A DNA stretch of 62,097 bases, filler included, from Dugesia japonica (taxonomy: Eukaryota): assembly GCA_001938525.1 (NCBI GenBank). It is 5 parts of 5 records of this genome, joined end to end, with 100 filler letters (N's around TTAATTAATTAA, not from the genome) between each part and the next. Parts side by side here need not be neighbours in the genome. Positions count along the whole stretch, not along the records: positions 41,455 to 49,996 come from MQRL01124186.1; 4 more parts are not named here. The stretch is one strand, 5' to 3'. The position numbers and the translations under genes are program-made. Below the pieces are notes generated by a model. That model was not told where the DNA came from. It saw only the letters and a program-made list of their open reading frames with translations, and did no database searches. Of this stretch, positions 47,821 to 49,251 are shown piece after piece (positions within the stretch are counted from its first letter, which is position 1; each line of letters begins with the position of its first letter).

Positions 47821-49251
47821 ATGTCTAATGGACAAGTTATACTCACTATTTTAATAATAGTGATGGGGGAAATTAAATGTCAAGACTGTTGGACCAATGA
47901 GATAATATTAACGGAACATAGAATTTATGTTGACAACCAAAAAACCACTATTCGAACAATGAGCACGGATGGAAAAAGACGTGAAGTAAAAATTTTCGAA
48001 GGTTATGGACACGAGTCGATAATGTTAAAACCTACCATCGTAGGATCAAAGGACACTGAATTATTGTTATCATGGTACGGGTGGACCGCAAGTCTATAGT
48101 ATAAAGGAGAAGTACCAGTGGAAGGTCAAGCAATGCATTTCGATATGAATCAGTGGTGGATGTATTCAGCACAAGAATTTCAAGGGAAACGTAAAAGAAA
48201 CCATGGAGATTACGAGCAACAAATAAATTTTGAAATGCAACATGTGCGTAATCTCCTAATATACTAAATAATAGAGAACCCACAACAAAAAGGATGGACA
48301 TGGAGACGAAAAGGATACGAAAGCGTAAAAGTCTGCCATCAGAATGAATATATCTTCCATATTCAATTCTGGAAAAATATATTTAGAGAAACAACGGGTA
48401 AAATTAAGAAACAGCTGTTCATGGAACAAAAAAGCATCGCCATTAACCTGGGAAAAGGATTACACACAGTAACAGAATATACATTTAAGAAATGGGGGTC
48501 ACATTGGCAAGAAGTCCCAGGACCGGCACGATTCAGTAAAATGAACAACACATACTGGTTGCGGATTAATGAGAAAAAGGAACAGTTAACGACACAAAAA
48601 TATTATTCACTCGCTCAATGGGGATGGTGTTATAATGAAGAAATATCGGGATTCAAAGAGAATGTATCACAAGAACAAGGGGTAAACATGGGTAGTTTTG
48701 AACCAGAAATGTGGGAAATGGAATTCACCACAGTTATAAATCGGGATATAATAATAAAACTGAACAGCACTAAGCCAAAGACTAAAATAAGTACTACAAC
48801 CACCACAGAAAAAACCACAGCATCAACAGGAACAGAAAAACCAGTTAGGACCTCCAACGAGGAAAAAGGAACATAAAGAACCAACTTCCTAAACGATTTA
48901 ATGAGAAACCTGAGGAAGTACCAACCAAAGGAAGATCACATGATGATATGGGGTGGACCTACTACCCTAAAGAAACCAGTAACCACCTCTAAACCAACCA
49001 GAATTGGAACAGATCATATAATAATAATAGGGAGTATACTAATAGTGGTACTGATACTAATCACATTATATGTGCAATTATGTAAGCGAAAAAAACCCAA
49101 ACAAAAGAAACATAGTCGAAACGGTCGGAAAAGACATCCTCTACTACTAGCCCCACCAAATTACGAAGGATTACCACTGGGGCCGGTAACGAACGGATTA
49201 CCCACATTTGTACCTAGACCGTATCAGGCACCGGGTATATTGGTATATTAA
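47821..49251 (+). pseudogene. Type I membrane glycoprotein (env-like), about 476 codons with 3 in-frame stops
   Basis: ORFs 47500..48099, 48421..48876 and 48901..49251 share one frame (stops at 48097, 48265, 48874). Features: signal-like MSNGQVILTILIIVMGEIKC, Trp-rich ectodomain with sequons NNT, NVS and NST, Thr-rich stalk STTTTTEKTTASTGT, TM IIIIGSILIVVLILITLYV, basic stop-transfer CKRKKPKQKK, and tail PPNY. Confidence 0.7.

What the first reader, a model, noticed from the sequence alone, without database searches (positions are those of the whole stretch)
47821..49251. Hidden membrane glycoprotein of about 476 codons, split by three stops, with a PPxY tail
Seen: three ORF-track entries lie in one frame and join into signal peptide, Trp-rich glycosylated ectodomain, Thr-rich stalk, TM, basic cluster and LAPPNY. 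Known: PPxY binds Nedd4-family WW domains and serves as a viral budding late domain. Inference: this is an attachment protein or an env of unrecognised type; I see no furin site/fusion-peptide arrangement typical of F-type env. An upstream overlapping ORF (47558..47809) with a basic region and a hydrophobic segment may be a frameshifted long leader.
Basis: partly seen in the sequence, partly recalled or inferred. Interest (0 to 1): 0.7.

Follow-up and report, generated by a model that had tools for sequence, protein, structure and literature searches.

The report
Second surface protein of a retroelement
This is a broken gene for a cell-surface protein at the tail end of a virus-like jumping gene that already has a fusion protein at its front; its closest relatives also carry such a second surface protein, so they may use one protein to grip a cell and another to fuse with it.

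Summary
Confirmed: 47821-49251 is one 476-codon frame with three stops (26-32 expected by chance), shaped as signal, ectodomain, Thr-rich stalk, TM, basic cluster and PPNY tail. It is not the element's env. It lies 3' of the pol of a decayed, multi-copy Ty3/gypsy element that already has a gB/chuvirus-type fusogen (PF24664) 5' of pol, the known GAG-ENV-POL (Burro/NERV-like) layout. It shares the element's A-rich strand signature. All 6 assessable nearest pol relatives carry a signal-ectodomain-membrane-anchor module in frame after integrase: fibronectin-III-like repeats in five, an Ig domain in one. A 3,735-aa relative has Gag, gB-Env, Pol and this module in one ORF. The target's ectodomain matches none of these and nothing among 1.84 billion proteins; its fold is unknown. 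Best reading: a second, exchangeable particle glycoprotein, probably for attachment, working beside the class III fusogen. Its function is inferred, not shown. The late-domain role is weak: PPxY arises in 8.5% of tail shuffles and in 0 of 6 relatives' tails. This copy is dead, and two RNA runs showed no reads on it. Tree placement is suggestive, not firm. My literature searches found no description of this slot, but two key papers were unavailable.

The parts
47821..49251 (+). Decayed type I membrane-protein ORF (476 codons, 3 in-frame stops): the 3' surface-protein slot of the element
47821..47883 (+). Signal-peptide-like segment (h-region residues 6-16)
   Evidence: hydropathy; no dedicated predictor run
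47884..48765 (+). Trp-rich ectodomain, no homologue, fold unknown; stops at 48097 and 48265; sequons at residues 242, 281, 315
48766..49017 (+). Thr/Ser/Lys-rich stalk; stop at 48874
49018..49074 (+). Transmembrane helix (residues 400-418)
   Evidence: KD19 3.19; only confident part of the AF2 model, pLDDT 86-90
49084..49248 (+). Cytoplasmic tail: basic cluster, PPNY (49153-49164) overlapping YEGL, Pro-rich
41566..42609 (+). Remnant of a gB/chuvirus-type class III env (PF24664), frameshifted; 5' part lost in an assembly gap, and no TM-strength segment left before the protease
   Evidence: Pfam E 6e-26 and 4.5e-7; collinear with P0022/P0127
42894..46384 (+). Decayed Ty3/gypsy pol: protease, dUTPase-like (about 43374-43565), RT, RNase H, integrase; several stops and frameshifts
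46384..47295 (+). 303-codon open frame starting at the end of integrase, in the same frame as the target; no family
47507..47809 (+). 100-codon open frame (ATG at 47558) in another frame, basic, with a marginal hydrophobic stretch; polyprotein linker or small separate ORF
49349..49687 (+). 112-codon open frame, acidic then coiled-coil-like; unassigned
   Evidence: (CdvA coiled coil, below cut-off)
49962..49976 (+). Polypurine-tract-like run just before the assembly gap; the 3' LTR, if any, lies in the gap
   Evidence: sequence

Best explanation
The ORF is the decayed copy of a second surface glycoprotein of a GAG-ENV-POL Ty3/gypsy element whose fusogen is the gB-type env 5' of pol. Shown: position, topology by hydropathy, element-type base composition, presence in sister copies, and a same-layout module after integrase in the nearest relatives. 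Inferred: the protein entered the ER by its signal (internal to the polyprotein in the relatives, where signal peptidase would free it; fused or separate is about even for this element), was glycosylated, and sat in the membrane beside gB-Env. There its stalk-mounted ectodomain gripped a target cell while gB did the fusion, the division of labour recalled from herpesvirus gD/gB and paramyxovirus G/F. The head is exchangeable: FN3-like, Ig, or this Trp-rich domain. The tail's basic cluster fixes topology; PPxY and YxxL most likely steer ubiquitin-dependent or endocytic sorting. I put element-borne second surface protein at about 0.85, and attachment role given that at about 0.55.
Against: The target's ectodomain shows no homology to the relatives' modules: hhalign 11.1 against a shuffle mean of 13.7, with 174 of 200 shuffles as high. 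The repeat profile scores it -2.3 bits with 161 of 500 shuffles as high, while recovering its own members at 9.6-58 bits when left out. So 'same slot' rests on position and layout only. The window RT is on a long branch (1.25), and a second quick tree with more distant rows left it unresolved. The shared 2-residue-shorter RT spacing also occurs in 3 other loci (L062, L137, L143). gB env is confirmed in only 2 of the 6 relatives; the other four records do not show it. P0127's anchor is weak (1.71) and terminal. TM-bearing ORFs after integrase also occur outside the group (L005, L077, L115, L154; 5 of 58 loci with L001). Depth over the target is 10-100 times below most pol bins, so many copies lack it or differ by more than 15%. 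Two RNA runs gave 6 and 37 reads on the element and none on 47726-49990. No binding or particle evidence exists.
Confidence: 0.5

Rival explanations
1. Element-borne surface protein that acts on the producer cell, not on the particle: receptor interference, an immune or adhesion decoy, or a cell-cell bridge that helps the element pass to germ or stem cells. PPxY and YxxL would control its turnover or recruit Nedd4 against host proteins.
For: FN3 and Ig heads are typical of host adhesion and signalling receptors. These elements collect host-manipulating domains: ankyrin and exonuclease ORFs in L001; BIR, BCL2-like and MATH in Burro (PMC6431247 section 7). HSV-1 UL56 carries PPxY with no evidence that it drives envelopment (PMC7995964 passage). 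Some class III fusogens need no partner (recalled: rhabdovirus G, baculovirus GP64).
Against: In P0124 the module is in one ORF with Gag, Env and Pol, so it would be made wherever particles are made. Head-on-stalk layout is typical of virion attachment proteins (recalled).
Confidence: 0.27
2. It is an independent fusogen, an env of unrecognised type.
For: It sits in the classical env position 3' of pol, has signal, TM and tail, and has a KRKR at residue 123.
Against: The element already has a PF24664 fusogen. No R-x-K/R-R site, no hydrophobic peptide between signal and TM, and only 2 Cys after the signal-end Cys. No fusion-protein family in Pfam or PDB sequences. Relatives hold non-fusogenic folds in this slot.
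Confidence: 0.07
3. A recently captured host gene fragment or a separate insertion riding along without function.
For: No homology to relatives' modules; low depth among sister copies.
Against: No host homologue among 1.84 billion representatives: 2 hits, both limited to stalk, TM and tail. The frame is uninterrupted by introns in an AT-rich genome, base composition is the element's own, and several distinct sister sequences carry it (3-25 contigs at each of 10 listed sites).
Confidence: 0.1
4. The three stops are assembly errors and this copy is functional.
For: The window is a gapped draft.
Against: Env and pol of the same copy carry many stops and frameshifts. A 430-base contig identical to the window spans the second stop (run X1, which may be the source sample). 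The 10 listed sites where this copy differs from nearly all others fall 4, 4 and 2 on codon positions 1, 2 and 3, as in neutral decay.
Confidence: 0.03

Closest known systems
GAG-ENV-POL HSV/gB-type errantiviruses of Nematoda, Bryozoa and Platyhelminthes (Chary and Hayashi, PMC13524379; abstract, sections 5 part 1, 6 part 1, 9 part 2 and 22, passages, and rows of supplementary file 1 seen)
   Same: gB-type env 5' of a Ty3/gypsy pol; multi-copy; nine flatworm elements of this type are listed.
   Different: The main text has no occurrence of accessory, attachment, immunoglobulin or fibronectin and describes no surface protein 3' of integrase. This copy is decayed. Their sequences lie in a repository I could not open, so I could not test whether this family is among their 1512 elements.
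Burro/GYPSM1 giant Gypsy elements of planarians (PMC6431247 section 7 read whole; Grohme 2018 not held)
   Same: Env resembling mononegavirus fusion proteins in frame between gag and pol; dUTPase-like domain between PR and RT; accessory domains either in the polyprotein or as separate ORFs; ankyrin repeats as in relative L001.
   Different: No 3' membrane protein is mentioned. BIR, BCL2-like and MATH domains cannot be tested here because the 5' part is in a gap. No direct sequence comparison was possible.
Nematode endogenous retroviruses, NERV (Sacco et al. 2022; not held; seen only as cited in PMC13524379, otherwise recalled)
   Same: Env placed before pol.
   Different: From memory, their extra ORFs are a small hypothetical protein or a Upf1-like helicase; I could not check whether any is a membrane protein.
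Bdelloid rotifer LTR elements with variable ORF3 (PMC5408684, passages seen)
   Same: dUTPase between PR and RT; exchangeable 3' ORF including small TM proteins and DEDDy exonucleases.
   Different: There the 3' ORF is the only env candidate. No second glycoprotein beside a fusogen is described in the passages seen, and fibronectin and immunoglobulin do not occur in the text.
Two-component entry systems: herpesvirus gB with gD/gH-gL, paramyxovirus F with G/H/HN (recalled)
   Same: A fusogen plus a separate stalked glycoprotein; gD has an Ig-like core (recalled), as the module of P0127 does.
   Different: Analogy only. No sequence or structural homology of the target was found, and no interaction was tested.

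Membership tests
GAG-ENV-POL gB-type Ty3/gypsy errantivirus (element) | pol in the order PR-RT-RNase H-integrase | tested here: met
GAG-ENV-POL gB-type Ty3/gypsy errantivirus (element) | HSV/gB-type env within 2 kb upstream of pol, same strand | tested here: met
   PF24664 E 6e-26 and 4.5e-7, match ending about 300 bases before the protease
GAG-ENV-POL gB-type Ty3/gypsy errantivirus (element) | gag upstream of env | not testable with these tools
   The element begins at an N gap (41355-41454) and no genome is held. Present in relative P0124.
GAG-ENV-POL gB-type Ty3/gypsy errantivirus (element) | LTRs and primer-binding site | not testable with these tools
   Gaps on both sides; no long direct repeat found; only a PPT-like run.
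GAG-ENV-POL gB-type Ty3/gypsy errantivirus (element) | uninterrupted ORFs (the paper's criterion for an intact element) | tested here: not met
   Stops and frameshifts in env, pol and the target: a decayed copy.
GAG-ENV-POL gB-type Ty3/gypsy errantivirus (element) | multi-copy in the host genome | tested here: met
   9279 and 14165 contig records laid, mostly 85-95% alike, all 30 bins covered
Burro-like elements | dUTPase-like domain between PR and RT | tested here: met
   PF00692 25.1 bits, cut-off 22
Burro-like elements | giant ORF1 with BIR, BCL2-like, MATH and ankyrin domains | not testable with these tools
   5' part missing from the window
F-type (class I) env, for the target | furin site R-x-K/R-R followed by a hydrophobic fusion peptide, conserved Cys set | tested here: not met
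   No such site and no internal hydrophobic peptide; no Pfam match
gB-type (class III) env, for the target | PF24664 match, Cys-bridged ectodomain of about 600 residues | tested here: not met
   No match; ectodomain and stalk about 380 residues with few Cys
FN3/Ig-type 3' module of the nearest relatives, for the target | signal, ectodomain, stalk, TM, basic and Pro-rich tail, 3' of integrase | tested here: met
   Layout table, (TM at residue 400, against 238-415 in relatives)
FN3/Ig-type 3' module of the nearest relatives, for the target | sequence homology to the FN3-like repeats | tested here: not met
   no better than shuffles
FN3/Ig-type 3' module of the nearest relatives, for the target | beta-sandwich fold | tested here: inconclusive
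PPxY late domain | motif present on the cytosolic side | tested here: met
   Residues 445-448, after the TM
PPxY late domain | conserved beyond chance | tested here: inconclusive
   1708 of 20000 shuffles; 0 of 6 relatives' 3' tails, but PPxY follows the env TM in both full relatives, P0124 and P0127; sister copies not readable at this site
PPxY late domain | binds Nedd4-family WW domains and is needed for budding | not testable with these tools
   Needs an experiment

The most novel reading that the evidence does not exclude
A lineage of animal Ty3/gypsy elements has a two-glycoprotein entry system like that of herpes- and paramyxoviruses: a class III fusogen before pol and a separate, swappable attachment protein after integrase, made from one multi-spanning polyprotein that also tethers Pol to the budding membrane. 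The head has been exchanged at least three times (FN3-like, Ig, and this Trp-rich domain, which may be a new fold).
Probability: 0.4. Interest if true: 0.8.

Novelty: new variant of a known kind. Interest (0 to 1): 0.6.

Why it matters
Retroelement envelopes are normally one protein that both binds and fuses (recalled). How gB-type errantiviruses pick a target cell is open, since herpesvirus gB needs partner glycoproteins. A conserved slot for a second surface protein with exchangeable adhesion-type heads would give a candidate tropism determinant for soma-to-germline or animal-to-animal spread. It can be tested on published element collections by asking whether gB-type env before pol predicts a membrane module after integrase. 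The gene in this window is a dead copy; its value is as a pointer to that slot and to an ectodomain with no known relative.

Tried and rejected
Own genome: none held, so no copy-by-copy dN/dS. Homologue searches for the target: word-indexed search of 261-833 aa, 0 of 1843 candidates; 1.84 billion representatives, 2 hits confined to stalk, TM and tail, one a protocadherin-like tail by my reading; viral contigs, none; Pfam, only generic TM matches below cut-off; PHROGs and PDB sequences, none; no match in the 80 loci or the 159. A language-model look-alike result for the target itself was not obtained, so that route to its fold stays open. Structure: single-sequence AF2 uninformative, and the fold search on it is meaningless. 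My by-eye match of target residues 170-250 to the relatives' FN3 repeat failed two decoy-controlled tests and is rejected. Widening the relatives' module family found nothing among 4550 candidates of 224-865 aa or in viral contigs. The RT spacing signature was dropped as unique evidence. The post-integrase ORF gave only sub-threshold look-alikes (0.81). No RNA holder was listed by the run search. Only 40 of 893 variant places were shown, none at a stop, so I cannot say whether sister copies are open there. Literature searches for a second glycoprotein, an attachment protein, or Ig or FN3 domains in such elements found nothing relevant (judged from listings). Supplementary file 2 of PMC13524379 gave no hit for the name searched. 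Three look-ups of earlier scan findings returned nothing. No complex prediction was sent. The host phylum was not determined.

Full report
Observation. The frame 47821-49251 (+) translates to 476 codons with stops at codons 93, 149 and 352. The other five frames have 17-45 stops. Simulations with the same composition gave means of 26 and 32, and none of 3000 in either model had 3 or fewer. Hydropathy shows a signal-like N-terminus and one TM at 400-418, with a Trp-rich ectodomain (14 Trp, 3 sequons), a Thr-rich stalk, a basic cluster and PPNY at 445-448. Topology rests on hydropathy only.

Context. The ORF lies in an 8.5-kb piece between two assembly gaps (41455-49996) that is richer in G+C and in A than the flanks. 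Pfam shows, in order on the + strand, Monjiviricetes fusion glycoprotein (PF24664; E 6e-26 and 4.5e-7), dUTPase-like, RT, RNase H and integrase. A natural env-pol fusion protein aligns collinearly over both parts (P0022), so env and pol are one element. All parts carry stops and frameshifts, and no TM-strength segment is left after the env match. This is the GAG-ENV-POL, gB-type layout reported for nematodes, bryozoans and flatworms (PMC13524379, section 5 part 1 and passages) and for planarian Burro elements, which also have the dUTPase-like domain (PMC6431247, section 7). Gag and LTRs fall in the gaps. The host is an AT-rich eukaryote, presumably an animal; I did not determine its phylum. 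The fusogen role is therefore already filled, and the target is an additional gene.

It belongs to the element. Its base composition (A .41, C .17, G .20, T .215) matches env-pol (A .38, T .25) and not the flanks (A about T, GC .245). Contigs from two runs of the host show a large family (9279 and 14165 records, mostly 85-95% alike) covering all 30 bins. At each of the 10 listed variant sites in the target, 3-25 contigs differ from this copy, and the one listed indel there is 3 bases. Depth over the target (107-580 and 252-1456) is far below most pol bins but similar to the env-protease linker (154 and 399), so it is either a fast-diverging part or missing from many copies. Only 40 of 893 variant places were shown, none at a stop, so the state of sister copies at the stops is unknown. 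Two RNA runs gave 6 and 37 reads on the element and none over 47726-49990; their tissues are unknown.

No homologue. Searches of 5.8 billion clusters (261-833 aa), 1.84 billion representatives, Pfam, PHROGs, PDB sequences and viral contigs found nothing for the ectodomain. Single-sequence AF2 is uninformative (mean pLDDT 36).

How close are they? RT identity is 47-50%. In a 46-row tree (top 45 of 109 full-length matches plus the window), the window RT joins these seven at 99/96. Integrase pieces rank the same six first. However, the window branch is long, a 36-row quick tree with more distant rows left it unresolved, and a shared shorter RT spacing also occurs in three other loci. Kinship is likely but not firm.

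The target is not a recognisable FN3 or Ig protein. Two decoy-controlled tests put it within the shuffled range, and the repeat profile finds nothing in any + frame of the element. The slot thus seems to hold at least three unrelated heads on the same signal-stalk-TM-tail chassis.

Expression route. In all six relatives the module is in frame with pol behind an internal signal. Here the target's frame continues upstream to the end of integrase with the same stop density (3 in 479 codons against 3 in 476), which fits a former polyprotein. Against that, an ATG sits directly before the h-region, and codon usage at 47507-47806 prefers another frame that ends just before it. Fused or separate is about even.

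Mechanism. Inferred: a glycoprotein displayed beside the gB-type fusogen, with its head binding a cell-surface partner, by analogy with herpesvirus gD/gB and paramyxovirus G/F (recalled). In a Gag-Env-Pol-module polyprotein the membrane crossings alternate correctly (signal, TM, signal, TM), leaving Pol cytosolic and tethered until proteolysis; this too is inference. The main rival is a producer-cell surface protein that manipulates or bridges host cells. PPxY late domains are described chiefly in Gag and other structural proteins and bind Nedd4-like ligases (PMC7995964, passages). Here the motif has an 8.5% chance rate and is absent from the six relatives' 3' tails, although PPxY follows the env TM in both full relatives. 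A sorting or turnover signal is at least as likely as a budding signal.

Novelty. The element type is known. I found no description of a surface protein 3' of integrase in env-before-pol elements in the texts read or in eight searches. Sacco 2022 and Grohme 2018 were not held, and the sequence repository of PMC13524379 could not be opened; any of these may already show it. Verdict: a real but dead gene that marks an apparently undescribed second-glycoprotein slot. New variant of a known kind, interest 0.6.

Noticed in passing
P0016 residues 71-139 and about 213: A third FN3-like repeat with its own signal and TM lies before the protease, so this relative has such modules on both sides of pol (E 2.4e-8, not in the training set).
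   Followed up: partly
P0124 (3,735 aa): Whole element in one ORF, with about 900 unassigned residues between Gag and Env and what looks like a second, degenerate protease before the main one.
   Followed up: no
L001:3645-10374: After integrase: an extra aspartic-protease-like domain and ankyrin repeats before the membrane module, then two separate ORFs, one with an RNase_T exonuclease domain (E 1.5e-11) and one that resembles it by eye.
   Followed up: partly
L154:1647-8402: A 2,252-aa gypsy ORF in which a chromodomain is followed in frame by a signal, a Cys-rich ectodomain and a TM; it looks env-like, but has no Pfam match and only a faint score to the gB-type env.
   Followed up: partly
L005:7329-10189: GDSL lipase ORF plus a 719-aa TM-bearing ORF after pol, as in rotifer elements.
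   Followed up: no
L089:4506-7262; L153:7326-9089: A helicase-like AAA_11 ORF and a BTB-domain ORF downstream of gypsy pol.
   Followed up: no
L082-L159: Dozens of gypsy pol loci sit in contigs filed under bacterial genome bins, most likely eukaryotic contamination.
   Followed up: no
window 55496-55570 (-): A 75-base, 75%-identical fragment of the env region: a second remnant of the family.
   Followed up: no
window 23439-24078 (+): Exon-like pieces of a DNA polymerase alpha/epsilon subunit B gene (PF04042, E 3e-7).
   Followed up: partly
window 21541-22251 (+): Ulp1/C48-like protease ORF, weak (E 0.009), in a run of open frames from 18126 to 23177; probably transposon-borne.
   Followed up: no
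window 290-742 (+) and 33688-33852 (-): Fragments of other gypsy pol sequences.
   Followed up: no
window 30279-30728 (-): 149-codon frame with hydrophobic segments, like an exon of a host membrane protein; no Pfam match.
   Followed up: no
window 41399-41410, 50041-50052 and similar: Assembly gaps contain a 12-base spacer with stops in all frames, an assembly artefact and not biology.
   Followed up: no
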